A stretch of DNA of 64,000 nt, from assembly GCA_965220745.1 (NCBI GenBank), contig CBDCQT010000013.1:800001-864000 (forward strand), given 5' to 3'. A program made the translations under genes and the position numbers. Origin of the DNA: Alphaproteobacteria bacterium. Lineage in GTDB: Bacteria > Pseudomonadota > Alphaproteobacteria > UBA828. Below, piece by piece: positions 11,109 through 23,993 of the stretch. A model generated the notes under the pieces. That model was not told where the DNA came from, did not search any database, and saw only the letters and a program-made list of their open reading frames with translations. Positions within the stretch are counted from its first letter, which is position 1. The number at the start of each line of letters is the position of its first letter.

Positions 11109-11240
11109 GGAGCAACTCCCTCGGGTGGTTGGACGTTATTGAGAGCATATACCAGCTTGCGCTGCACGGTGCTGCCGGTGTGGCGCGCCGGATGTGCAGC
11201 ATTTGGGCAGCCGCCGCCGCGCCGCACGCCGACAGAACCC

Positions 11241-12533
11241 TCGGGCGACGGTGACGGCCACCCGGTGCATCGCGTTGTTGAGATAGCCATTGGGGTTCCA
11301 GGCGACCGCGTGGGGCTGGATTATGCCCTTCGAATCCGTCGCCCTGGCCAGATCTCGTAGTAGCCGGGCCCTGGAAACTCGACCATCGCGCCAATTCTGC
11401 CAGGCACCGGGGTTCACCGGCGCATCGAGCGTTGCGCCGCTCCAGGTCGCGCCGAAATCGATGGAGAGCCGGACCGCATCCACCGTCGAATCGCCCAGCC
11501 AGGCATGCCCGCGCACGCCGAGTGTTCGCGCCGCCATTCTGTGTCCGGTGGCCGGGTAGGTAATGAGCGACTTGACCGGCATCGCCTGGATGATGACGAA
11601 GTCCTTCTCGTCGAGCGGCTCCTCCGGTGCTATCGGGCGGCCCGGAACGCGGTAGGAGGTGCCGGTCATCTTCGCTCCGTCGTGAAACCGATCACGCAAC
11701 CAGACACGCGTACGCCATTTTTGGGAGCACGCGCCGGGCCATCCCGGAAACACGAGGCGCAGCGGCGCGTCGTTCGTGGGATGGATAGGCCGGCCGTGCT
11801 GGGTGAAGGCCAGGAGCGTGTTCTGGTCCATGGCCTTCACGATGGGCACCCCGCGCGAGATCGGGTGTCGGTCCGCTGCGCCGGAGGGGTGCGTGTCCGC
11901 GCCCTCGTGCGCGGTGTAGACAACGCCGCCCTTCACGCCTGCCGCCTTGAGCACGTCGGCGAGGCGGACCCGTTCCACGCCGAGCAGGCGACGGCGCCGT
12001 AGGTCCACTGTGCAACATCGGCCGGGGGATCGAAGAAGGCGCGCCCGTTGCCGGTGCATTCCAGCGTCAGCGCGCGGGTGACGACATCGAACCTGCGCTT
12101 CAAGTCGTCGCTGCCGAGCGTCAGCGGAGTCTCCACCAGACCGTCGACGGTGAGCGCCCAGGCAGCTGCATCGACCCTCGCAGGCGGAATGCCGTTGTTG
12201 CGGACGAAGTGCCGCTCGGTCGGCGTGATCGCGTTATCGAGCAGGTGCGCCGGGGTCTCCGCACTCAGTGGCCGGTCGTTGAGCACGATCAGGCCGTCCT
12301 TGCCTACAATGGCGGGCGCGTCTGCGAGCGCGGCGGGGATGAAGTGCGCGGGCATGGTGCGGCGGAAGGGGATGGTCCCACCGACCAGCGTCGCCATGGC
12401 CGCCAGCCCGGCCCCCCTTGAGGAAGCCGCGCCGGTCGGGATGGGTCACGCGGCCGAACAGCAGACGGTCGGCCTTGTCGGGAACCTCCCGATAGAACTC
12501 GTGCAAGCTCCGGCTCGCAGAGGTCTTGTGCAT
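11241..12533 (-). pseudogene. Sulfite oxidase-family molybdoenzyme (SorA/SorT/SoxC-like), several frameshifts
   Basis: Fragments in different frames: Tat DRRGFLKG, HFVRNNG, LECTGNGR, VRLADVL, APLRLVFPGW, SQKW, WNPNGYLNN; CGA where the stop is expected. Confidence 0.88.
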
Positions 12534-13934: not shown

Positions 13935-15392
13935 TCAGGCGAGCGGGAGGACCTGGCCGCCGGGGCCGCGGGGATCGATGGGCGTGCCGGCCGCGAGGGG
14001 AATCGCCTCCTCGATCGCAGCCGCCGCCCGCAGCACCGCCGCCTCGCCGCGCGGGGGCCCGAGGATCTGCAGGCCCACCGGCAGCCCCGCCTCGGTGAAG
14101 CCCACCGGCACCGAGGCCGAAGGACACGCGGTCAGCGTCAGCACGAAGGTGAGGCCCAGCCAGTCGACGTAGTTGTCGAAGCGGTGGCCGTCGATCTCGT
14201 CGACCCAGCGCGTGTCCACGTCGAAGGGCGGCACGATCACGCACGGGCACACCAGCACGTCGTGGCGGGCGAAGAAGCGCACGCAGCGCTGGTAGATGCG
14301 GCCGCGCGCACGCTCGGCCCGCGCGATCGTGTCGGCGTCGAGCGCGAGCCCCTTCTCGATGTTCCAGATGACCTCGGGCTTGAGCGCGTCACGGTGGGTC
14401 TCCAGTAGCTCGCCCTTGTCGGCGGCGAAGAGGGCCGCGCGCAGCACCTGGAAGATGTCGAGCGCGCCCGAGAGGTCGGGGCAGGCCTCGGCGACCTCCA
14501 TGCCGGCACCGGCGAGCGTCTCCACTGCGCCCGCGCAGACGGCGGCGACCTCGCGGTCCACCGGCAGCAGGCCCAGGTCCGGGCTGTAGGCGATGCGGCC
14601 GGGCGGCGGCATCGTCGTCAGCGCTTCGGCGAAGCTCTGCGCCGGCGCTTCGATGGAGAGCGGGTCTTCGGTGTGAGCGCCGCTCATGGCATCGAGCATG
14701 AGCGCGCAGTCCCGCGCGTTGCGCGCCATGGGGCCGTCCACCATCAGCCCCTCGAAGGGGAGGTGCTTGGGCCCGTGGGCGACGCGGCCCGGACTTGGCC
14801 GCATGCCGAAGACGCTGCAGAAGCTCGCAGGTATCCGCAGGCTTCCCCCTAAGTCCGAGCCCGTGGCGAGCCAGACCTGGCCGGTGGCAAGCGCCGTGGA
14901 CGAGCCGCCGGAGGAGCCGCCGCAGGTCTTGTCGGTGTTCCAAGGGTTGCGGGTCTTGCCGAAGACCTCGTTGAAGGTGTTGGCGCCGGCGCCGAACTCG
15001 GGCGTGTTGGACTTGCCGATGACGATGGCGCCGCGCGCCTCCAGGGTCTCGACCGCGATGTCCGAGCGCGGCGGCACGTGGTCGGCGTAGATCGGCGAGC
15101 CCCAGGTGGTGCGCACGCCCGCCACCTCCACCAGGTCCTTGACCGCGATGGGCACGCCGCCTAGCCAGCCGCGCGGGCGTTCGGTGTCCGCATCCTCCGC
15201 CATGATCCGCTCGGCATGAGCCCGCGCCCTGTCGATGCAGAGCGTCGGGATCGCGTTGAGATGGCCGTCGGTCGCCGCGATCCGCGCCGCGCTCGCGTCG
15301 ACCAGCTCCAGCGGCGAGACCTCGCGCCTGCGGAGCAGGTCGACGACCTCGGCCGCGGTCAGCCGGCAGAGTTCGCCGCTGGCTGCTGCCAT
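13935..15392 (-). CDS. Amidase signature family protein
   Basis: GVPIAVKDL, GKSNTPEFG, GGSSGGS, GSDLGGSLRIPAS. Confidence 0.93.
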   Translation of the reverse strand: MAAASGELCRLTAAEVVDLLRRREVSPLELVDASAARIAATDGHLNAIPTLCIDRARAHAERIMAEDADTERPRGWLGGVPIAVKDLVEVAGVRTTWGSPIYADHVPPRSDIAVETLEARGAIVIGKSNTPEFGAGANTFNEVFGKTRNPWNTDKTCGGSSGGSSTALATGQVWLATGSDLGGSLRIPASFCSVFGMRPSPGRVAHGPKHLPFEGLMVDGPMARNARDCALMLDAMSGAHTEDPLSIEAPAQSFAEALTTMPPPGRIAYSPDLGLLPVDREVAAVCAGAVETLAGAGMEVAEACPDLSGALDIFQVLRAALFAADKGELLETHRDALKPEVIWNIEKGLALDADTIARAERARGRIYQRCVRFFARHDVLVCPCVIVPPFDVDTRWVDEIDGHRFDNYVDWLGLTFVLTLTACPSASVPVGFTEAGLPVGLQILGPPRGEAAVLRAAAAIEEAIPLAAGTPIDPRGPGGQVLPLA

Positions 15393-15406
15393 GCCGCCGT
15401 CCCCGG

Positions 15407-16804
15407 TCAGGCCGCAGGCGGCGTGCGGCTGTGCCAGTCGGAGTCCTGCTGGTAGGCGTGCCCCGCCTGCAGCAGCCGCTCCTCGCTGAGCTGCGGCCCC
15501 ACGATCTGAAAGCCCAAGGGCAGGCCGTCCTCGTCGAAGCCGCCGGGCAGGCACATCGCGGGCGTCCGTGCCATGTCGTGGGGGGCGGTGAACGAGATCA
15601 GCCGCTCGACCGAGCCCTCCTCGGCGCCCAGGGTATCCATGAAGGCGTTGGTGGGCGTCGGGTAGGGTTGCGAGGGAATGATGATCGCGTCGACATCGGC
15701 GAAGACGGCATTGAGCGCGCCGACGAACTTGTCCCGCTCGATCACGATGCGCGCGTGGTCGACGCCGCTCAGCGCGAGCCCGACCTCGATCAGGCTGCTC
15801 AGCACCGGCCCGTACTTGTCCTTGTTGTCGGCATAATAGGGCTCGTGCGCGATGGCCGTGTCCGCGCCGCAGAAATCGTTCCAGCGGTCGACCATGACCG
15901 TCGCGTCGGGGAAGGCGATGGGCCGGATGTCGGCGCCGCGCCCGCGCAGCACGTCCGCCGCCTGCATCACCATGGCGGTCACGCGCGAATCCACGCCGTC
16001 GGAGCAATAGGCCTCGTCGAGGCCGATGCGCATGCCCTCGATGCCGGCGTCGATGCTGCCGAGGTAGTCCGGCACCGGCGCCTGCACGGTGGTCGGATCG
16101 TCCGGATCGACCCCGGCGATGACGCCGAGGATGGCCGCACAGTCGGCCGCCGAGCGGGCCATCGGCCCGATGTGGTCGAGGGTCTCGGAGAGCGCGAAGG
16201 CGCCTGCCCGGCTCACCCGGCCCCAGGTCGGCTTGAGCCCGGTGACGCCGCAGGCCTGCGAGGGGAAGCGGATCGAGCCGCCCGTATCCGTCCCCAGCGA
16301 GCCGTAGCAGAGCCGGGCCGTGGTGGCGACGCCGGAACCGCTCGACGAGACGCCGGTCCAGTAGTCCGGATGCCACGGGTTGACCGGCGGCTCGATGGTG
16401 GGGTGGTGCACCGCGTAGGCGCCCTCGGTCATCTGCAGCTTGCCGGCGAAGACAGTGCCGGCGTCACGCAGCCGCGCCACGACGGTGCCGTCCGCGCCAG
16501 GGCTCCAGTCGCGCAGCGCCACCGAGCCGACGTGCGTGGGCGCGTCCTTCGTCAAGCAGAGGTCCTTGAGGCCGAAGGGCACGCCGTGCAGCGGCCCCTT
16601 CACCGTGCCGCCCGCGATCTCCGCGTCCGCCTGCGCCGCCTGTTCGGTCGCGACATCGGCCATCACCGTGGCGTAGCTGCGGAGCGTGCCGTCCAGCCGT
16701 TCGATCCGCGCGAGCGTGTGCGCCGTCACCTCGGCAGCGGACACCTCCCGCGACTGAATCTTCGCCGCGACCTCGGTCAGCATCAGCTCGTGCAGATCAG
16801 ACAT
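15407..16804 (-). CDS. Amidase signature family protein
   Basis: HGVPFGLKDL, GVSSSGSG, GTDTGGSIRFPS; GGAG RBS. Confidence 0.93.
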   Translation of the reverse strand: MSDLHELMLTEVAAKIQSREVSAAEVTAHTLARIERLDGTLRSYATVMADVATEQAAQADAEIAGGTVKGPLHGVPFGLKDLCLTKDAPTHVGSVALRDWSPGADGTVVARLRDAGTVFAGKLQMTEGAYAVHHPTIEPPVNPWHPDYWTGVSSSGSGVATTARLCYGSLGTDTGGSIRFPSQACGVTGLKPTWGRVSRAGAFALSETLDHIGPMARSAADCAAILGVIAGVDPDDPTTVQAPVPDYLGSIDAGIEGMRIGLDEAYCSDGVDSRVTAMVMQAADVLRGRGADIRPIAFPDATVMVDRWNDFCGADTAIAHEPYYADNKDKYGPVLSSLIEVGLALSGVDHARIVIERDKFVGALNAVFADVDAIIIPSQPYPTPTNAFMDTLGAEEGSVERLISFTAPHDMARTPAMCLPGGFDEDGLPLGFQIVGPQLSEERLLQAGHAYQQDSDWHSRTPPAA

Positions 16805-17337: not shown

Positions 17338-17730
17338 ATGGCGGAGCGTTTTTCGATGACCATCGACGGCCGCACGGTCGTCGCCGAGCTGCTGGGGCAG
17401 AAGGCGCCCAACGTCGTCAAGGCGTTCACGGAGAGCCTGCCCTGCGACAGTTTCTCGGTTCACGCCAAGTTCGCGGGCGACGAGCTGATCGTGATGCTCC
17501 CGTTCTACTGCAACTCCGAGAACGAGATTCTCAACGTGAAGCCCGGCGACATCGGCTTCTATCCGGGGCGCCAGACCGCCTGCATCTTCTATGGCGACAC
17601 CAAGCCGTTCGGGAAGGTCAGCGTGTTCGCCAGGATCGTCGACGGCCTGGAGCACCTGAAGCCCGCGGGTAAGAAGATCCTCGCCAAGGGTCCGCTGCCG
17701 GTCCGGCTCGAACTCGTCGAGGGAGCGTAG
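17338..17730 (+). CDS. DUF3830 family cyclophilin-like protein
   Basis: APNVVKAF..LP, HAKFAGDE, EN, PGDIGFY, IFYG, VFARI; GGAG RBS. Confidence 0.8.
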   Translation: MAERFSMTIDGRTVVAELLGQKAPNVVKAFTESLPCDSFSVHAKFAGDELIVMLPFYCNSENEILNVKPGDIGFYPGRQTACIFYGDTKPFGKVSVFARIVDGLEHLKPAGKKILAKGPLPVRLELVEGA

Positions 17731-17734
17731 CGCC

Positions 17735-18214
17735 ATGGCAGCAACCGAGACGGCCGCCATCGTCGACCGGCTGGAGCGCTTCGGCCGGCGCAACTGGAAA
17801 TCCGAGCCCGGCGACGTCACCCGGCTGCGTGCGCACAGTCTGCCGCCCATGGGCAACACGCCGCCCGTGCTCTACGCCAACTTCAACACCTTCTGGATGG
17901 GCGAGAATATCCAGGTCGTGCGTCAGCTCGCGCTCGACAAGGCGCTGCCGCCGGCGGCGCTCAACGCCATGGCGGCGGCGCTGCTCAACCGCCACGCCGG
18001 ACGCCTCGCCAAGTGGAAGCTCACCGGCACGGTCAGGCTGGTGCGCGAGCTCGCCTCCTACTTTGAGGCGGGCGGCGCCCAGAGCCACGACGACGTGGTG
18101 CAAGTCTGCGAGGCGGCGATGGTCGCCTTCGACCGCATCAACGCCTGGATCGACGCGATGATCCCCTGGGCGCACCTCGACAAGAAGGTCAAGCTCCTGC
18201 CGGCGGCCGGCTGA
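17735..18214 (+). CDS. Helical-bundle protein resembling the cucumopine synthase/McbB C-terminal domain
   Basis: Helical pattern; W..EP near the N-terminus, INAWIDAMIPW at the C-terminus; 4 bp after the DUF3830 gene. Confidence 0.6.
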   Translation: MAATETAAIVDRLERFGRRNWKSEPGDVTRLRAHSLPPMGNTPPVLYANFNTFWMGENIQVVRQLALDKALPPAALNAMAAALLNRHAGRLAKWKLTGTVRLVRELASYFEAGGAQSHDDVVQVCEAAMVAFDRINAWIDAMIPWAHLDKKVKLLPAAG

Positions 18215-18238
18215 CGGCGCCGCGGGCGAGCGAAACCC

Positions 18239-19144
18239 ATGTGCGGCCTCGGCGGCGTCTTCTTCAAGACCACGGAGCACCATCGCCGGACCGGCGAGAT
18301 CGCCTACCGCGTGCTGGACGGCATCTTCCGGCGCGGCCCGGATTCGACCGGGCTCGCCCTGGTCCAGCCGGCCAGCGAGGATCGCCTCTACGTCGGCATC
18401 AATTGCGAGGAGCCCGGCGGCGGCGGGCGGGCGCTCGCGCTGCTCGACGAGCTCGGCCGGGTCGAGAGAGCGACCGACGGCGAGGGCTTCATCAGGACCG
18501 CGATCCGCTACAGCGGCGACGATGAGGCGCTGGTGGACGCGGTCGACGCGTTGGGCCCCGCCTATACCGTCGCCAGCATCGGCCGACACATCGAAGTGGT
18601 GAAGCACCTGGGGGGCGTGGAAACCCTCGAGGAGAACTTCGCGATCACGAATTACGACGGGCCGCTCGCCATGGGGCTCACGCGCTTCGCCACCGAGAGC
18701 ATCATCGACTTCACCCACGGCCAACCGCTTTCCGCCAGGCTGCACCGCGATCTCGCCATCATGCACAACGGCCACATCACGAACTTCCACCACCTGCGCT
18801 ACCACTTCGAGCGCGCGGGCTACACCTTCACCACCGGCAACGATTCCGAGGTGATCGCCGTCGCCATCGTCGACGAGATGGGCAAGGGCGCGAGCTTCCA
18901 CGAGGCGCTGGAGCGCTCGGTGACGATCCTCGACGGCTGCTTCACCTATATCGCCGTGACCAAGGACGAGGTGGGCGTGGTCAAGGATCCCTACGCGGCC
19001 AAGCCCCTGGTGGTGGGGGAGACAGACCGGCTGGTGGCGGTCTCGTCCGATTGCTGGGCGCTGCGCGACGGCATCGATGAGGACATCGAAGTGTGGGAGC
19101 CTGGGGCCGGCGAGGTGGTGACGTGGCGAATTCCGCTGCACTGA
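18239..19144 (+). CDS. glxB: Class II glutamine amidotransferase-like subunit (GlxB/MgsA-like)
   Basis: N-terminal MCG, RGPDSTG, TRFATES, HNGHITN, NDSEV. Confidence 0.85.
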   Translation: MCGLGGVFFKTTEHHRRTGEIAYRVLDGIFRRGPDSTGLALVQPASEDRLYVGINCEEPGGGGRALALLDELGRVERATDGEGFIRTAIRYSGDDEALVDAVDALGPAYTVASIGRHIEVVKHLGGVETLEENFAITNYDGPLAMGLTRFATESIIDFTHGQPLSARLHRDLAIMHNGHITNFHHLRYHFERAGYTFTTGNDSEVIAVAIVDEMGKGASFHEALERSVTILDGCFTYIAVTKDEVGVVKDPYAAKPLVVGETDRLVAVSSDCWALRDGIDEDIEVWEPGAGEVVTWRIPLH

Positions 19145-19827
19145 CCATCGACTGCGCCGGCCGGCCGACGCGCGCGATCAACGAGGAGATTCGCCGCGCG
19201 GCGGACGAAGGCGTGCCCGAGGTCGAGCTGCTCAACCCGCAGGCCCGGCACAATCTCGGCGTCTCGGTCCTCAAGCCCATCCACATCGTCTATCGCGGCC
19301 ACGTCGGCTCGTTTACCGCCGGGCTCTGCGACGGCATCACCGCGGAGGTCCACGGCACCTGCGGCTGGGGCGTGGCCGACAACCTGATGAGCGGCGAGGT
19401 GGTCGTGCATGGCAACGCCGCCACCTCGGCGGCGCCCTCGATCCGCGGCGGGCGCGTCGTGGTGCGCGGCGACTCGGGGCCGCGGTCGGGCATGATCCTG
19501 AAGAAGGGCGAGCTCATCGTCGGCGGCAACACCGGCTACATGTCCGGCTTCATGATGCAGAACGGCCGCATGATCGTCTGCGGCGACGCCGATACCGGCC
19601 TCGGCGATTCCATGTATCAGGGCGTGATCTTCCTCGGCGGCACGGCGAAGGAGCTGGGCTCCGGGCTGGAAGAGGTCGATGCCGAGAACGGCGAGCTCGA
19701 CGAGGTGGCGGCGCTGCTCGACCGCTTCGAGATCAAGGCGCCCCCAAAGTTCCGCAAGCTGCAGTCGGACCGCAAGCTGTGGCACTTCAACAAGCATGAC
19801 TTCGCGGCGTGGAAGGACGTGCTATGA
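19123..19827 (+). CDS. glxC: GXGXG-domain glutamate synthase-like subunit (GlxC/MgsB-like)
   Basis: ARHNLGV, GWGVADNLMSG, GYMSGFMMQ, LGDSMYQG. Confidence 0.88.
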   Translation: MANSAALTIDCAGRPTRAINEEIRRAADEGVPEVELLNPQARHNLGVSVLKPIHIVYRGHVGSFTAGLCDGITAEVHGTCGWGVADNLMSGEVVVHGNAATSAAPSIRGGRVVVRGDSGPRSGMILKKGELIVGGNTGYMSGFMMQNGRMIVCGDADTGLGDSMYQGVIFLGGTAKELGSGLEEVDAENGELDEVAALLDRFEIKAPPKFRKLQSDRKLWHFNKHDFAAWKDVL

Positions 19828-21236
19828 GCGAGACCCCCGGCTCACCGCCTCCGGCCCATGCGGGCGATTCCTCGGTCGAGGTTCTGGAGGACGCAGCACC
19901 GGCACCCAACGGCGCCTATCCGCGGCCCGACAGCTTCAGCGGCGTCTGGCCGCCGGAGGTGATCGAGGAGATTCAGGAGAAGGCCTCGCTCGGCCGCTAC
20001 CAGATCCGCGGCCAGGCGACCAAGCGGCGGGGCCTGCCCTCCTTCGACGATCTGGTGTTCGTGCCTGCCGGGCTCTCGCGTATGCCGCTCGAAGGCTATC
20101 GGGAGAAGTGCGACACGCGGGTGGTGATCGGCGAGGGCAACTGCGAGAATCCGCTGGTGCTGGAGCGCCCGATCATGATCGCGGGCATGAGCTTCGGCGC
20201 GCTCTCGGTCCACGCCAAGCGCGCACTCGGCACGGCGGCGAGCCGCTGCGGCATCTCCACCTGCACCGGCGAGGGCGGCATGCACCATGAGGAGCGCCGC
20301 TACTCCGACAAGCTGGTGATGCAGTACCTGCCGAGCCGCTACGGCATGAACCCCTACGACCTCAAGAAGGCCGACATGATCGAGATCGGCGCCGGCCAGG
20401 GTGCGAAGCCCGGCACCGGCGGCGTGCTGCTCGGGCTCAAGATGTCGGACGAGGTGGCGGAGATGCGCGATCTGCCCGAGGGCGTGGACCAGCGCAGCCC
20501 CTGCCGCCATCCCGACTGGATGGGTGCCGACGATCTCTACATGAAGCTCGAGGAGATTCGCGAGGTCACCGAGTACAAGGTGCCGATCTCCATCAAGGTC
20601 GGGGCCGCGCGCATCGCCAACGACGTCCGCATCGCGGCCAAGGCAGGCGTCGATGCCATCGTCTTCGACGGCATGGAGGGCGGCACCGCCGCCTCGCCCA
20701 CGATCCAATTGGATCACGCCGGCATTCCCACCGTCGCCGCCATCGCCGAAGCCTCCGAGGCGCTCGCCGAGATGGGCAAGAAGGACTCCATGAGGCTCAT
20801 CGTCGGCGGCGGCATCCGCAACGGGGCGGACGCGGCGAAGTGCATCGCCCTCGGTGCCGACGTGGTCTATCTCGGCACCGCGCCGATCATCGCCATGGGC
20901 TGCCACAAGCCGATCTATCTGGAGGACTACGCCCGCCTCGGCACCTCGCCCTACGAGTGCCAGCACTGCCACACCGGCCTCTGTCCGGTCGGCATCACCA
21001 CCCAGCTGCCCAAGCTGATGGAGCGCCTCGACGTGGACGAGGCGGCTGACAGCGTGACCAACTACCTCAACGCGCTCACCATGGAGATCCAGCTCTTCGC
21101 CCGCGCCTGCGGCAAGAACCGGGTGAGCGACCTCGACCCCAACGACCTCCGTGCGCTGACCTACGACGTCTCACTCATGACCGGCGTCGACATGGTGGGC
21201 CTCGGCGGCCGCACCCCCTGGTGGAAGAAGTTCTGA
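19824..21236 (+). CDS. glxD: FMN-binding glutamate synthase family subunit (GlxD/MgsC-like)
   Basis: AGMSFGALS, TGEGG, GQGAKPGTGG, DGMEGGT, CHTGLCPVGITTQ; ATGA overlap. Confidence 0.9.
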   Translation: MSETPGSPPPAHAGDSSVEVLEDAAPAPNGAYPRPDSFSGVWPPEVIEEIQEKASLGRYQIRGQATKRRGLPSFDDLVFVPAGLSRMPLEGYREKCDTRVVIGEGNCENPLVLERPIMIAGMSFGALSVHAKRALGTAASRCGISTCTGEGGMHHEERRYSDKLVMQYLPSRYGMNPYDLKKADMIEIGAGQGAKPGTGGVLLGLKMSDEVAEMRDLPEGVDQRSPCRHPDWMGADDLYMKLEEIREVTEYKVPISIKVGAARIANDVRIAAKAGVDAIVFDGMEGGTAASPTIQLDHAGIPTVAAIAEASEALAEMGKKDSMRLIVGGGIRNGADAAKCIALGADVVYLGTAPIIAMGCHKPIYLEDYARLGTSPYECQHCHTGLCPVGITTQLPKLMERLDVDEAADSVTNYLNALTMEIQLFARACGKNRVSDLDPNDLRALTYDVSLMTGVDMVGLGGRTPWWKKF

Positions 21237-21562
21237 GACCCCGGACCATGGTGCGGGCGACTGATGGCGGCGCCGGGTCTAGGGTGAGGGGTGCCGCCAT
21301 GACCGTGGTCCGAGATCGGAGTCGGGTCGATGACTGAGGACCAATTACGATTACAAGCGATTGCGACCAAAACCCCGGTGACACCATCGACCAGACGGCC
21401 CACATGGCGCAGGACATGATCGACAGGCTGCTGCGCTATAGTGACTTGGTGGCCTGGGGACATGGTGTTCTCATGTACCCATATATGGGATAAGCTCACA
21501 CGCTCTCGGAGGCGGCGGACGCACCACCGCCTGCGGGGCGACGCACGGAAAGGAACAGGCCG

Positions 21563-21826
21563 ATGGGCGAACCGCAAGGGCGGTTGCTCGCCGAGGAAAT
21601 CGAATTCTACGAGAAGAACAAGGACCGGTTCATCCGCGAGCACACCAACCGTCATCTACTCATCAAAGGGAGTGAGTTGATTGGAACCTTTCCCACGGCA
21701 GATCAAGCAATTGGAGAGGGCGTGCGCCGCTTTGGTACAGGCCCTTTTTTGGTTAGATTAGCTGGAGAAGACACCCCCACTATAACCGCACCCGCACTTG
21801 TGTTGGGATTGCTGTGCCAATCATAA
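21563..21826 (+). CDS. Small DUF5678-like protein
   Basis: EIEFYEKNKDRFIREH..LLIKGSELIG..AIGEG..FG..PFLVR; AAAGGA RBS. Confidence 0.7.
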   Translation: MGEPQGRLLAEEIEFYEKNKDRFIREHTNRHLLIKGSELIGTFPTADQAIGEGVRRFGTGPFLVRLAGEDTPTITAPALVLGLLCQS

Positions 21827-22287
21827 ACTTGAGGGCTGAGAGCAGGAACGAAAAGGGCGAAGTAAGACCGGCGCCTGAAGCCCTCGCCCTTAGCGGCCCC
21901 ATCCTTCCTGTAACACTAACACTTTCAGATGCGAGTCAAAGAGCCTATAGCGAGCAGGGAAAACCGCTGCCGGAAACTGTCAGCGGACTTGCGATGATTG
22001 ACACAGGCGCAACCTCTACATGTTTCGACCAGGACTCAGCACGGGCTGCTGGTCTTCCCGTAGTTGGTACGGCGAAAATGTCTTCTACGACGCACGCAGA
22101 TCAAGAAATGCCTGTGTTTGCGGGTAAGATGATGATCGCAGGACAAATTGTAATTGATGTAGATAGGGGAATGGGAGCTAACCTTTCGTCATTTGACGGT
22201 TTAGTGGCCTTGATCGGGCGGGACCTACTGTCGTCGGCTGTATTCACTTATAATGGGCCAGATGGTTCTATTTGTATAGCAATTTGA
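21814..22287 (+). CDS. Retropepsin-like (clan AA) aspartyl protease
   Basis: AMIDTGA catalytic motif; ALIGRDLL; overlaps the upstream gene by 13 nt; AT-richer than flanks. Confidence 0.82.
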   Translation: MPIINLRAESRNEKGEVRPAPEALALSGPILPVTLTLSDASQRAYSEQGKPLPETVSGLAMIDTGATSTCFDQDSARAAGLPVVGTAKMSSTTHADQEMPVFAGKMMIAGQIVIDVDRGMGANLSSFDGLVALIGRDLLSSAVFTYNGPDGSICIAI

Positions 22288-22408
22288 CGGTAACAATTTC
22301 AATTGATGTATGCATATTTTAGAAGAGGTATTGGCTAAAGGTTAGCGGATAGAACGAATACAGTTTCGCATAACTCACTGTTGTAAAGTGTAGATTACCC
22401 AATATTTC

Positions 22409-23407
22409 TTACACTGGGGCGGGCTCCAACCAGGCGCTGAAGGTCTCGCGGATCCTCGCGTCGTCTGCGCCTCCCATCAACAGGAGTGTAAGCAGCAGGC
22501 GGGCCTTGAGCCCGTCGAGCCAGCCGGCGCTGATCAGCCCGCGCGCCAGCAGGTCGATCTCCGAGCCCTTGAAGTCGTAAGTCTGGCGCAGCATCTCGCC
22601 CGCCCCGGTGCGGGATGCCATGACCACCGGCACTTGCGCGGCCGCGTCAGCGAGCTTGTCGGCGACCCACGCCGCAGCGTGACCCCCGCCGGTGCATTCC
22701 ATCACGATCCCCCGGTAGCCCGCCTCCAGCGCGCGCTCGATCAACCGGCCGTCGTCGCCGAGCGTCACGGTAAGCAGCGCCACCGGCACGACCTCGGCGT
22801 CCCGCGCCACCGCGACGGTGCGGCGCGGGCCCGGCCGGCCGGCGAGCCGGGGCGCGCCCTCCGCGAACCAGCCGAGCGCCCCGGCCGGCATCGAGCGGAA
22901 GGCGGCCGGGTTCGAGGTCACGCCCTTCTGCACGTAGCGCGCGGCGTGGATTTCGTCGTTCATCACCACCATGACGCCGAGGCCGCGCGCGGGCTCGTGC
23001 ACGGCGAGGCGCACGCTGTTCAGCAGGTTCGCCGGCCCGTCCGGCCCGGCGAGCGTCGGGTTGCGCATCGCGCCGGTCAGCACCACCGGCGCATCCAGCG
23101 CCAGGACGCGGTCGAGCACGAAGGCCGATTCCTCCATCGTGTCGGTGCCGTGGGTGACCACCACGCCGCGGGCGCCGTCGGCCACGGCCTGCTCGATGGC
23201 ATCGGCCAGCGCGAACAGGTCGGGGATCGTGACCTCCGGGCTCGGCAGCAGGCGGAAGGTCTCGGCCTCGATGGACGCGACCTCGGCAAGCTGCGGCACC
23301 GCCTCCACCAGCGCGTCGGCGCCCAGGGAGGGTTTGACACCGTGTTCCCCACGCTCGGCCATGGCGATGGTCCCGCCCATGGCGAAGATCGCGACCCTGG
23401 GAAGCAT
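22409..23407 (-). CDS. L-asparaginase family protein
   Basis: MGGTIAM, VVTHGTDTMEE, LTGAMR, DGPANL. Confidence 0.93.
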   Translation of the reverse strand: MLPRVAIFAMGGTIAMAERGEHGVKPSLGADALVEAVPQLAEVASIEAETFRLLPSPEVTIPDLFALADAIEQAVADGARGVVVTHGTDTMEESAFVLDRVLALDAPVVLTGAMRNPTLAGPDGPANLLNSVRLAVHEPARGLGVMVVMNDEIHAARYVQKGVTSNPAAFRSMPAGALGWFAEGAPRLAGRPGPRRTVAVARDAEVVPVALLTVTLGDDGRLIERALEAGYRGIVMECTGGGHAAAWVADKLADAAAQVPVVMASRTGAGEMLRQTYDFKGSEIDLLARGLISAGWLDGLKARLLLTLLLMGGADDARIRETFSAWLEPAPV

Positions 23408-23417
23408 GGCGTGCGCC

Positions 23418-23993
23418 TCAGCCGCGCAGCCAGGTCTCGGACCAGGCCAGGCAGCAGGAGCTCGATGGACGCCCGAACATGACGTTCTCGTAAGCCCCAC
23501 CCTGCGCGCGCGTTCCCGCGACCTCCAGTGTCGCGGTCCGGCACGGCACGAGGCAGCTATAGACCGCCCACGGCCCCGTGTCGTCGTTGTTAGGCGGCAA
23601 CGTGAGCATGAAGGGCTCGCCCATGTCGGACCAACTCAGCTCGATGCGGCCATCGGCCGAGTCGACGATCTCACGATAGGTGGAGCGGAAGGCGCCCTCG
23701 CGCGAAAACGCCGCTTCGGCGATCGGCATGGCGGTGTCGGCGAAGGGCGGGTTCAGGATCGACTCCAGCTCGCCCTGAAGCCACCGCGCCATGCCGACAT
23801 TGTCCGCATAGAGCCTGACTTCGCCGCCGGTGGCGTCGGAGCGGAGGAAGAGGCAGGTGCCGGGACCGGCCGGCGAGATCAACGTGCGCCAGTGGGCGCA
23901 GACGGTGGTCTCCGGCCCATCGGCCTCGGTCTTGAGCCGCAGGAAGGAATTCTCCCCCGTGAAGTGCACCGTGTTCGGATCGATGGCTGGCAT
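23418..23993 (-). CDS. Hypothetical beta-rich protein
   Basis: AGGAGGAG RBS; coding-like codon use; FTGENSF, SCCLAWSETW. Confidence 0.75.
   Translation of the reverse strand: MPAIDPNTVHFTGENSFLRLKTEADGPETTVCAHWRTLISPAGPGTCLFLRSDATGGEVRLYADNVGMARWLQGELESILNPPFADTAMPIAEAAFSREGAFRSTYREIVDSADGRIELSWSDMGEPFMLTLPPNNDDTGPWAVYSCLVPCRTATLEVAGTRAQGGAYENVMFGRPSSSCCLAWSETWLRG

What the first reader, a model, noticed from the sequence alone, without database searches (positions are those of the whole stretch)
17338..21236. Split Pictet-Spenglerase-like pair in one operon with a GlxBCD/N-methylglutamate-synthase-like trio
Seen: five co-oriented genes with gaps of 4 and 24 bp and two overlaps. Gene 1 is a DUF3830 cyclophilin-like domain. 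Gene 2 is helical with W..EP and N.W....PW signatures. Established (recalled, not searched): McbB/StnK2 and cucumopine synthase fuse a cyclophilin-like N-domain to a helical bundle ending N.W....PW and condense an amino acid with an oxo-acid; GlxBCD/MgsABC is a split glutamate-synthase-like amine transferase. Inference: a heterodimeric enzyme working with an amine/2-oxoglutarate transferase in an undescribed pathway making or degrading an N-substituted glutamate or opine-like compound. Caveat: the McbB catalytic Glu region reads YGDTKP here, so the chemistry may differ.
Basis: partly seen in the sequence, partly recalled or inferred. Interest (0 to 1): 0.8.

Follow-up and report, generated by a model that had tools for sequence, protein, structure and literature searches.

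The report
Split McbB-like pair beside glutamate-synthase-like genes
Two small adjacent genes are the separated halves of a Pictet-Spenglerase-type protein that has lost its catalytic glutamate, and across marine, sponge and soil bacteria they travel with a split glutamate-synthase-like enzyme and a glutamine-synthetase-like ligase, which points to an undescribed step in amine or amide nitrogen metabolism.

Summary
Five co-oriented genes lie at 17338-21236: g1 (DUF3830, cyclophilin-like), g2 (helical, no Pfam hit), and GlxB-, GlxC- and GlxD-like genes.

g2 is a divergent Cucumopine_C / McbB helical domain:
- Its model matches the McbB C-domain at Z 17.4.
- hhalign against standalone relatives, 38 of 46 of which are Pfam Cucumopine_C, gives 99.9%.

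In SAR202 and other bacteria g1 and g2 are one roughly 290-aa protein. Its model overlays whole McbB at Z 30.6.

Linkage is conserved:
- GlxB is present in 27 of 28 genome loci.
- All 19 metagenome loci with enough flank have GlxD and/or a specific GS-like ligase.

The McbB/KslB catalytic Glu aligns with an invariant Pro, and KslB's indole-stacking Phe aligns with an invariant Arg. Canonical Pictet-Spengler chemistry is therefore unlikely.

Best reading, by inference: a two-chain McbB-type module that binds an acidic amine / 2-oxoglutarate adduct (iminium) and works with a GS-like plus GlxBCD amine-transfer system. The substrate is unknown. I rate it a new variant of a known kind.

The parts
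17338..17730 (+). g1: 130-aa cyclophilin-like beta-barrel (DUF3830). It is the counterpart of the McbB N-domain / KslB C-domain. The catalytic-Glu position is Pro90.
   Evidence: Pfam DUF3830 48.9 bits against a cut-off of 26. PDB sequence hits are TM1367 and 3KOP. Ortholog alignment A4. Residue mapping through the profile alignment to McbB/KslB.
17735..18214 (+). g2: 159-aa helical bundle, a divergent Cucumopine_C-type domain. It is the counterpart of the McbB C-domain / KslB N-domain.
   Evidence: No Pfam hit. AF2 model pLDDT 91. McbB 3x27_D Z 17.4, rmsd 2.8, 151 aligned; KslB Z about 15.5; the next unrelated match is Z 11.5. hhalign against A3 gives 99.9%, E 6.7e-33.
18239..19144 (+). g3: GlxB-like class-II (Ntn) glutamine amidotransferase, with N-terminal Met-Cys.
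   Evidence: GATase_6 1.2e-17 and GATase_7 9e-16. Translation starts MCGLGG.
19123..19827 (+). g4: GlxC-like GXGXG beta-helix subunit. The start is uncertain: GTG 19123 or GTG 19093.
   Evidence: GXGXG 8.8e-12. Sequence. Ortholog matches begin at residues 10-18 of the long ORF.
19824..21236 (+). g5: GlxD-like FMN-binding glutamate-synthase domain protein.
   Evidence: Glu_synthase 5.6e-98. ATGA overlap with g4.
13935..16801 (-). Two tandem amidase-signature genes transcribed divergently from the operon (approximate starts). This context is specific to the window's lineage.
   Evidence: Pfam Amidase 1.4e-99 and 3.1e-94. Present next to the cassette in only 6 of 28 genome loci: L001, L002, L004, L006, L007, L014.
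22409..23500 (-). Asparaginase/glutaminase gene downstream, convergent. This context is lineage-specific.
   Evidence: Asparaginase 2.7e-57 and Asparaginase_C. Found in 7 of 28 loci.

Best explanation
g1 and g2 are the two halves of a McbB/KslB-type two-domain protein (cyclophilin-like barrel plus helical bundle), encoded as separate genes in this alphaproteobacterial lineage.

They most likely reassemble into the same barrel-on-bundle unit, probably a dimer of heterodimers as in McbB/KslB.

The unit keeps the family's amino-acid-binding strand (HAKFAGEE). It has lost the general-base Glu that completes the Pictet-Spengler reaction. Where KslB holds the indole ring, it carries invariant Arg/Lys.

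I therefore read it as performing only the first half of the family's chemistry. It would bind an amine or amino compound together with 2-oxoglutarate, or 2-iminoglutarate, as an anionic Schiff-base/iminium adduct, and form, exchange or hydrolyse that adduct.

It would do this alongside a dedicated amine-handling system:
- a GS-like ligase that gamma-glutamylates an amine released by varying neighbouring hydrolases;
- GlxB, which releases and channels the amine;
- the FMN subunit GlxD, which interconverts glutamate, the 2-oxoglutarate iminium and N-substituted glutamate.

Shown: homology, the split and fused forms, loss of the Glu, and conserved linkage with GlxBCD and the GS-like gene.

Inferred: physical assembly, the iminium role, the direction of the pathway, and the substrate.
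For: Homology:
- g2 model against the McbB C-domain: Z 17.4, rmsd 2.8 A over 151 residues. KslB helical domain: Z about 15.5. Next unrelated match: Z 11.5.
- The A1 profile search of 1.84e9 representatives gave 124 hits. They include proteins of about 285-325 aa with a DUF3830 N-domain and a g2-like C-domain, and Pfam Cucumopine_C members P0153 and P0131.
- hhalign A1 against A3: 99.9%.
- A profile of the fused relatives hits McbB over its full length (E 1.7e-16) and KslB as two swapped domains.

Split versus fused:
- One ORF of 286-294 aa in 7 loci (SAR202/Dehalococcoidia, Desulfobacteraceae).
- Two genes in the alphaproteobacterial loci.
- The fused SAR202 model overlays whole McbB: Z 30.6, rmsd 2.6, 285 of 291 residues.

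Active site (with the KslB paper PMC12012969, passages seen):
- McbB E97 / KslB E274 (YGP.TE) aligns without indels to P90 of YGDTKPFG, which is invariant in A4.
- KslB F89/Y92 align to R90/K93 of g2, both invariant in A1.

Linkage:
- GlxB in 27 of 28 and GlxD in 26 of 28 genome loci. Gene order is permuted in SAR202: GlxBCD, then the fused gene.
- Metagenome loci were found with g1 patterns only. 56 of 80 have the GS-like ortholog and/or GlxD. Among the 19 with at least 5 kb upstream and 2 kb downstream, all 19 have one and 14 have both.
- The GS-like ortholog is adjacent in 12 of 28 genome loci. In the window's genome it is present but unlinked, at C11:224773-226149.
- Flavin enzymes recur beside the module. 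GlxD does in these loci. A DAO-family FAD oxidoreductase lies directly upstream of g1 in 32 of 80 metagenome loci. An OYE FMN reductase lies beside the fused gene in L028.

RNA libraries:
- Contigs of relatives in four metatranscriptome runs cover the cassette.
- One contig spans 17371-18286 (g1/g2/g3 junctions). Another spans 18689-19894 (g3/g4/g5 junctions).
- Such contigs do not prove a single transcript.
Against: - No biochemical datum exists for any member of this clade.
- The residue mapping rests on HMM alignments. It does not come from superposed coordinates.
- A carboxylate one to three residues away (D87; E in some orthologs) could in principle substitute for the lost Glu. It is not conserved, though: K in L015 and L025, P or H in distant fused forms.
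- Close GlxD relatives lack g1/g2: 13 fetched loci, 51-58% identical, 12 of them with a GS-like neighbour. The trio therefore does not need such a partner for its basic reaction.
- In the quick GlxD tree the two g1/g2-linked clades (Alphaproteobacteria, SAR202) do not form one clade (SH-aLRT 87, unresolved). A single co-evolving system is therefore not demonstrated.
- Neighbouring hydrolases differ from lineage to lineage, so no substrate can be read from the context.
Confidence: 0.45

Rival explanations
1. g1/g2 is a genuine two-chain Pictet-Spenglerase. It would condense an aromatic amino acid or amine (His, Trp, histamine and the like) with 2-oxoglutarate supplied or regenerated by GlxBCD, giving a cucumopine/kitasetaline-like cyclic product.
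For: - Every characterised member of the superfamily is a Pictet-Spenglerase. KslB and cucumopine/mikimopine synthase use 2-oxoglutarate (PMC12012969 passages; PMC12536604 passages).
- The whole-protein fold matches McbB at Z 30.6.
- The amino-acid-binding strand H-A-x-x-(A/S)-G is kept.
Against: - The catalytic Glu, whose E274Q mutant is inactive in KslB, aligns to an invariant Pro.
- The indole-stacking Phe89 aligns to an invariant Arg.
- The KslB 2-oxoglutarate anchors R256 and K264 align to Gly and Thr.
- The Pfam Cucumopine_C model does not detect g2.
- The context is primary nitrogen metabolism: GS-like, GlxBCD, hydrolases, transporters. It does not resemble a natural-product cluster.
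Confidence: 0.12
2. g1/g2 is a non-catalytic subunit of the GlxBCD and/or GS-like enzyme in this subfamily, acting as a scaffold, a gate or an allosteric ligand sensor. It could, for example, fill the place of the central domain that split GlxBCD lacks relative to GltB.
For: - Tight operon coupling: 4-nt and 24-nt gaps, and overlaps.
- Strict co-occurrence with the trio and the GS-like gene.
- Very high conservation of g2: 48 invariant columns across 26 sequences that go down to 50% identity. This is typical of multi-interface proteins.
- Loss of the catalytic Glu.
Against: - L028 carries the fused gene with no GlxBCD or GS-like gene in the 14-kb stretch.
- Gene order relative to GlxBCD is not fixed, and several kb can intervene.
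- The invariant residues are mostly polar or charged (R, K, H, E, N, W), which fits a ligand pocket.
- Close GlxD relatives work without it.
Confidence: 0.2
3. The pair acts independently of GlxBCD on the product of the neighbouring hydrolases, for example as a hydrolase, isomerase or binding protein for an acidic amide or amino acid. Under this reading it only shares regulation with a nitrogen-assimilation island.
For: - Hydrolases of five different families flank the module in different lineages: amidase signature, M20, Amidohydro_3, PTE, and DMFase-like/S15.
- L028 lacks GlxBCD.
Against: - The hydrolases vary, while GlxBCD and the GS-like gene stay constant across Alphaproteobacteria, Chloroflexota and the soil metagenome clades.
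- Permuted gene orders that still keep the linkage argue for a functional tie.
Confidence: 0.13

Closest known systems
McbB (PDB 3X27), the Marinactinospora thermotolerans Pictet-Spenglerase. Its PDB molecule name is 'Cucumopine synthase'.
   Same: - Same two domains in the same order: cyclophilin-like barrel, then helical bundle ending in the W.....PW motif.
- The fused SAR202 ortholog overlays it at Z 30.6, rmsd 2.6, 285 residues.
- The g2 model alone: Z 17.4.
- Profile hit E 1.7e-16.
   Different: - Here the domains are two polypeptides.
- Catalytic Glu97 is replaced by Pro.
- Sequence identity is 12-17%.
- The genomic context is GlxBCD / GS-like nitrogen metabolism. That McbB lies in a beta-carboline biosynthetic cluster is recalled, not tested here.
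KslB (PDB 9NS6/9NST/9K0A), the Pictet-Spenglerase that joins L-Trp and 2-oxoglutarate.
   Same: - Same two folds: helical domain Z about 15.5, barrel Z about 21, rmsd 1.4.
- It uses 2-oxoglutarate, the metabolite at the centre of GlxD chemistry.
- Its swapped domain order shows that the linker is dispensable in this family (PMC12012969).
   Different: KslB residues E274, R256, K264 and F89 align to Pro, Gly, Thr and Arg here. KslB is a single chain.
GlnT-GlxBCD / GmaS-MgsABC: gamma-glutamylmethylamide synthetase plus N-methylglutamate synthase.
   Same: - Three separate genes for the Ntn amidotransferase, GXGXG and FMN domains.
- GlxD is 51-58% identical to GlxD of classical GS-like-linked clusters.
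- A GS-like gene is a conserved partner.
- SAR11 glxBCD/glnT are proposed as NMG synthase / GMAS homologs (PMC3160333 passages).
   Different: - The classical clusters have no g1/g2: 13 fetched loci, and the g2 profile found only the window's own genome among 401.
- The cassette's GS-like gene is a distinct ortholog group: 48-55% identity between Alphaproteobacteria and SAR202, against 25-32% to the classical GlnT neighbours.
- The four-subunit N-methylglutamate dehydrogenase genes (mgdABCD) were not searched for and are not among the neighbours annotated. A DAO-family FAD oxidoreductase, the family I recall for the dehydrogenase's beta subunit, does lie upstream of g1 in 32 of 80 metagenome loci.
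DUF3830 / TM1367-type stand-alone cyclophilin-like proteins (PDB 3KOP, 1ZX8).
   Same: g1 matches Pfam DUF3830 above its threshold and matches these chains by sequence and fold (Z 17.7-18.7).
   Different: These are single-domain proteins of unknown function. g1 always has a Cucumopine_C-type partner, either fused or adjacent.

Membership tests
McbB/KslB/cucumopine-synthase-type Pictet-Spenglerases (cyclophilin-like barrel + Cucumopine_C bundle) | Two-domain architecture: cyclophilin-like beta-barrel plus helical bundle | tested here: met
   Both domains are present, on two adjacent genes. Orthologs are fused in 7 genome loci and 19 metagenome loci. The fused model against McbB gives Z 30.6 over 285 residues.
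McbB/KslB/cucumopine-synthase-type Pictet-Spenglerases (cyclophilin-like barrel + Cucumopine_C bundle) | Match to Pfam Cucumopine_C (PF18631) above the gathering score | tested here: not met
   g2 has no hit at E<=10, and there is none in the whole genome. Relationship is seen only by profile methods: hhalign 99.9% to A3, of which 38 of 46 members are PF18631.
McbB/KslB/cucumopine-synthase-type Pictet-Spenglerases (cyclophilin-like barrel + Cucumopine_C bundle) | Catalytic glutamate in the barrel loop (McbB E97, KslB E274; E274Q is inactive) | tested here: not met
   It aligns, without indels between the flanking YG and hydrophobic strand, to Pro90 of YGDTKPFG. This Pro is invariant in 14 of 14 split orthologs and in 7 of 7 sequences of A6.
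McbB/KslB/cucumopine-synthase-type Pictet-Spenglerases (cyclophilin-like barrel + Cucumopine_C bundle) | Aromatic substrate pocket (KslB Phe89 stacking on indole) and 2-oxoglutarate anchors (KslB R256, K264) | tested here: not met
   The aligned residues are Arg90 of g2, and Gly73 and Thr80 of g1. The mapping comes from HMM alignment. These residues are known from KslB alone, so they may not define the whole family.
McbB/KslB/cucumopine-synthase-type Pictet-Spenglerases (cyclophilin-like barrel + Cucumopine_C bundle) | Catalyses a Pictet-Spengler condensation; homodimer | not testable with these tools
   This needs enzyme assays and a solution or crystal structure.
GlxBCD / MgsABC split glutamate-synthase-like trio | Three separate genes: Ntn (class II) amidotransferase with N-terminal Cys, GXGXG domain, FMN Glu_synthase domain | tested here: met
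   Pfam hits. g3 begins Met-Cys. Gene order is B-C-D with overlapping ends.
GlxBCD / MgsABC split glutamate-synthase-like trio | Adjacent GS-like (GlnT/GmaS) gene | tested here: not met
   There is none in the window. The ortholog lies on another contig (C11:224773-226149). It is adjacent in 12 of 28 genome loci and 46 of 80 metagenome loci of relatives.
GlxBCD / MgsABC split glutamate-synthase-like trio | N-methylglutamate synthase activity and linkage to N-methylglutamate dehydrogenase genes | not tested
The position of characterised MgsC in the GlxD tree is unknown, because no reference sequence was available.
DUF3830 (PF12903) | HMM match above the gathering score | tested here: met
   48.9 bits against a cut-off of 26.

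The most novel reading that the evidence does not exclude
The McbB-like g1/g2 unit, the GS-like ligase and GlxBCD together form a previously unrecognised flavin-dependent route for making or breaking N-(1,3-dicarboxypropyl)-type (opine-like, N-substituted glutamate) compounds. The Glu-less Pictet-Spenglerase homolog would build or open the amine / 2-oxoglutarate iminium, and the GlxD FMN would reduce or oxidise it. This would be a third enzymatic solution beside the NAD(P)H opine dehydrogenases and the cyclising Pictet-Spenglerases. It would serve sponge symbionts, SAR202 and soil bacteria in scavenging organic nitrogen.
Probability: 0.2. Interest if true: 0.8.

Novelty: new variant of a known kind. 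Interest (0 to 1): 0.62.

Why it matters
Every characterised member of the McbB/KslB/cucumopine-synthase superfamily is a secondary-metabolite or opine Pictet-Spenglerase.

This clade has lost the catalytic glutamate. It is often split into two genes. It is embedded in a conserved nitrogen-metabolism cassette (GS-like ligase plus split glutamate synthase) found in sponge-associated Alphaproteobacteria, marine SAR202 and soil metagenomes.

If the inferred role is right, three things follow:
- It reveals a new function for the fold.
- It gives a handle on the poorly understood glnT-glxBCD systems.
- It points to an unknown class of organic-nitrogen substrates used by abundant uncultured bacteria.

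The proteins are small and soluble-looking, so the hypothesis can be tested directly in vitro.

Tried and rejected
- Complex prediction of g1 with g2: no verdict (runs 0.76, 0.03, 0.09; mark 0.32). It is neither for nor against binding.
- Direct sequence routes for g2 found nothing: Pfam and NCBIfam, the A1 profile against PDB sequences (only chance hits near E 1), and PF18631 against the whole genome.
- Literature searches:
  - 'DUF3830': 0 papers.
  - 'Cucumopine_C/PF18631/PF12903': 1 paper, on fungal opine synthases.
  - KslB/Pictet-Spenglerase, cucumopine/McbB, glxBCD/mgsABC and glxB/glnT listings. No title or abstract start in these listings mentions a split form or a GlxBCD link.
  - Supplements (for example the KslB alignment figure S7) could not be seen.
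- The careful GlxD tree did not finish, so only the quick tree is reported. It leaves monophyly of the g1/g2-linked GlxDs unresolved.
The context of the stand-alone Cucumopine_C proteins therefore remains unexamined.
- Neighbour leads that did not generalise:
  - The ABC transporter and DMFase-like cluster of L012 sits beside the other, classical GlxBCD cluster in the window's genome.
  - The 2OG-Fe(II) oxygenase next to the unlinked GS-like gene is not near the cassette elsewhere.
  - The 383-aa SAR202 neighbour has no Pfam or PDB match.
- Promoter and terminator scan: nothing above the shuffled expectation.
- RNA-library contigs left 21308-21600 almost uncovered, with 21469-21600 at zero in all four runs. 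This is not evidence of transcript ends.
- DNA runs labelled as sponge metagenomes hold 0.30-0.36 of the stretch's words.

Full report
**What is in the window**

On the + strand at 17338-21236 lie five tightly packed genes.
- g1: 17338-17730, 130 aa.
- g2: 17735-18214, 159 aa, 4 nt after g1.
- g3: 18239-19144, 301 aa, 24 nt after g2. It begins Met-Cys.
- g4: ends at 19827. It starts at GTG 19123 (likelier) or GTG 19093. Either start overlaps g3.
- g5: ATG 19824-21236, an ATGA overlap with g4.

Pfam gives DUF3830/Cyclophil_like for g1, GATase_6/7 for g3, GXGXG for g4 and Glu_synthase (5.6e-98) for g5. g2 has no Pfam or NCBIfam hit, even at E<=10.

Upstream on the other strand are two amidase-signature genes. 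Downstream is an asparaginase. The only slip is that the C-terminal motif has five residues between W and PW, not four.

**What g1 and g2 are**

g2 belongs to a small, highly conserved family of roughly 160-aa hypothetical proteins. I found 64 hits and aligned 26; alignment A1 has 48 invariant columns.

Fold evidence for g2:
- Its AlphaFold model (pLDDT 91) finds only bacterial Pictet-Spenglerases at the top of the PDB.
- With VIA-align the McbB C-domain (3x27_D residues 155-311) scores Z 17.4, rmsd 2.8 A, 151 aligned.
- The N-terminal helical domain of KslB scores about 15.5.
- The next, unrelated bundle scores 11.5.

Sequence evidence for g2:
- An exhaustive profile search reached 124 proteins.
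- Many are 285-325 aa with a DUF3830 N-domain and a g2-like C-domain.
- The weaker hits include bona fide Pfam Cucumopine_C proteins P0153 and P0131.
- Of 46 stand-alone 150-168-aa hits (A3), 38 match Cucumopine_C. hhalign of A1 against A3 gives 99.9%, E 6.7e-33. A3 was drawn from A1's own hit list, so this is a transitive link. It is not an independent test.
- A profile of fused relatives (A2) hits McbB over its full length (E 1.7e-16). It hits KslB as two domains in swapped order, which matches the published domain swap (PMC12012969, passages read).

**Split versus fused**

In the Chloroflexota loci (L020-L024, L026) and a Desulfobacteraceae locus (L028), the g1 and g2 equivalents are one ORF of 286-294 aa. 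In the alphaproteobacterial loci they are two genes.

The model of the fused SAR202 protein (pLDDT 91.8) overlays whole McbB at Z 30.6, rmsd 2.6 A over 285 residues.

Among 80 metagenome loci, 19 are fused, 53 are split and 8 show only g1 at a contig end.

The window's pair is thus a natural gene fission of a McbB-type protein. That the two halves reassemble is inferred from the fused orthologs.

**The active site is not that of a Pictet-Spenglerase**

The mapping uses the profile alignments and the residue roles given in the KslB paper.
- The catalytic Glu (McbB E97 in YGPLTEY; KslB E274 in YGPTTET; E274Q is inactive) aligns to Pro90 of g1 (YGDTKPFG). There is no indel between the flanking conserved elements.
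- This Pro is invariant in the split orthologs and in the fused set A6.
- KslB Phe89 and Tyr92, which pack on the indole, align to the invariant Arg90 and Lys93 of g2.
- The KslB 2-oxoglutarate anchors R256 and K264 align to Gly73 and Thr80 of g1, although an invariant Arg78 sits nearby.
- The backbone strand that binds the amino-acid moiety (HAxxSG in KslB/McbB) is kept as HAKFAG.

These mappings come from HMM alignments; I had no superposed coordinates.

**Conserved partners**

Genome loci:
- Of the 28 genome loci that encode a g2 relative, 27 have GlxB and 26 have GlxD in the same stretch.
- The exceptions are a contig end (L025) and L028.
- In SAR202 the order is GlxB-GlxC-GlxD, then the fused gene. 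Linkage therefore survives rearrangement.

Metagenome loci:
- The scan used only g1-domain patterns.
- Of the 80 loci it returned, 56 carry GlxD (at least 60% identical) and/or a specific GS-like gene.
- Among the 19 loci with at least 5 kb upstream and 2 kb downstream, all 19 have one and 14 have both.

The GS-like gene:
- It is its own ortholog group: 48-55% identity between Alphaproteobacteria and SAR202, against 25-32% to the GlnT genes of classical clusters.
- It is adjacent in 12 of 28 genome loci.
- In the window's genome it lies unlinked at C11:224773-226149.

Other neighbours vary by lineage:
- amidases and asparaginase (the window's close relatives only; 6-7 of 28 loci);
- an ABC transporter, a DMFase-like protein, an S15 hydrolase and GntR (L012);
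- a PTE-family protein (L020);
- an M20 peptidase (L055 and L079);
- Amidohydro_3 and an OYE FMN reductase (L028);
- in 32 of 80 metagenome loci, a DAO-family FAD oxidoreductase directly upstream of g1.

**Rarity, and relation to ordinary GlxBCD**

- The g2 profile found only the window's own genome among 401 sampled genomes of the phylum.
- Pfam Cucumopine_C was found in 2 of 401.
- GlxD homologs are common: 325 of 401.
- The 13 closest I fetched (51-58% identical) have no g1/g2 hit in their loci. In 12 of them GlxBCD sits beside a GS-like gene.
- The window's genome has four GlxD paralogs plus GltB, and about 13 GS-like genes.
- A quick maximum-likelihood tree places the Alphaproteobacteria-linked, SAR202-linked and classical GlxD clades together, each well supported. 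It does not resolve whether the two linked clades are one (the careful search was unfinished).
- These tallies include one genome flagged unpublished (G383), counted as one of the 401.

**Expression hint**

Contigs from four metatranscriptome runs, 85-99% like the window, cover the cassette. One contig of 921 nt spans 17371-18286 (g1, g2 and the start of g3). One of 1216 nt spans 18689-19894 (g3, g4, g5). Such contigs belong to relatives, may include DNA carry-over, and do not prove a single transcript.

**Interpretation**

Shown:
- g1/g2 are a split McbB-superfamily protein.
- It lacks the Pictet-Spengler base.
- It co-inherits with a GlxBCD trio and a dedicated GS-like ligase across phyla.

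Inferred:
- The pair reassembles.
- It binds an anionic amine / 2-oxoglutarate adduct and forms, exchanges or hydrolyses the iminium. That iminium is the first intermediate of the family's chemistry, and also the species that GlxD-type FMN domains reduce or oxidise. The N-methylglutamate synthase mechanism I lean on here is recalled from established knowledge.
- Varying hydrolases would supply the amine, and the GS-like enzyme would capture it.

I put this at about 0.45. The rivals:
- a non-catalytic subunit, 0.2;
- an independent enzyme that is merely co-regulated, 0.13;
- a true Pictet-Spenglerase, 0.12.

**Novelty**

No title or abstract start in the search listings describes a split form or a GlxBCD/GS-like association for this superfamily, and 'DUF3830' occurs in no paper of the library. 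Papers outside the library and all supplements were not seen. I rate it a new variant of a known kind, with moderate to high interest, because it is directly testable in vitro.

Noticed in passing
P0038, P0043, P0050-P0056 (g2 orthologs; alignment A1 columns 3-75): Several g2 orthologs carry Lys/Ala-rich N-terminal tails of 10-70 residues. The precomputed Pfam for P0034 and P0056 is PF07382, which I recall as a histone H1-like family. The window's g2 has no such tail.
   Followed up: no
L088:7533-8489 (also P0068, P0072, P0073): In a soil-metagenome clade the g2 domain carries an extra N-terminal region of about 160 aa with a Cys-rich stretch and no Pfam match. Its gene overlaps the g1 stop and is followed directly by the GS-like gene.
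   Followed up: partly
L088:5744-7096 and 31 other metagenome loci: A DAO-family FAD oxidoreductase lies immediately upstream of g1 in 32 of 80 metagenome loci. This recalls the N-methylglutamate dehydrogenase / opine oxidase type of partner. There is no ortholog next to the window's cassette; the best match in the window's genome is 34% identical.
   Followed up: partly
P0110-P0184 (alignment A3): Dozens of stand-alone 150-168-aa Cucumopine_C-type proteins exist (38 of 46 match PF18631). Split forms of this superfamily may therefore be more common than this clade. Their gene neighbourhoods could not be examined.
   Followed up: partly
L028:1703-5807: In a Desulfobacteraceae MAG the fused homolog sits between an Amidohydro_3 hydrolase and an Old-Yellow-Enzyme-type FMN oxidoreductase, with no GlxBCD in the 14-kb stretch.
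   Followed up: partly
G000:C13:214719-215114 (outside the window): A second DUF3830 gene lies in the same genome (46.3 bits, open frame 231 aa). Its context was not examined.
   Followed up: no
G000:C10:485334-502091 (outside the window): A classical GS-like-GlxBCD cluster in the same genome lies next to the ABC-transporter / DMFase-like gene set. In L012 that gene set flanks the g1/g2 cassette instead.
   Followed up: partly
window 21236-22409: There is a drop in G+C (0.60 against about 0.68) between g5 and the asparaginase gene. It holds small ORFs, one of which (21814-22287) has weak sub-threshold matches to retropepsin-like aspartyl protease families.
   Followed up: no
window 11136-12059 (- strand): A molybdopterin oxidoreductase (Oxidored_molyb + Mo-co_dimer; I recall this domain pair from sulfite-oxidase-type enzymes) lies upstream of the amidases.
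   Followed up: no
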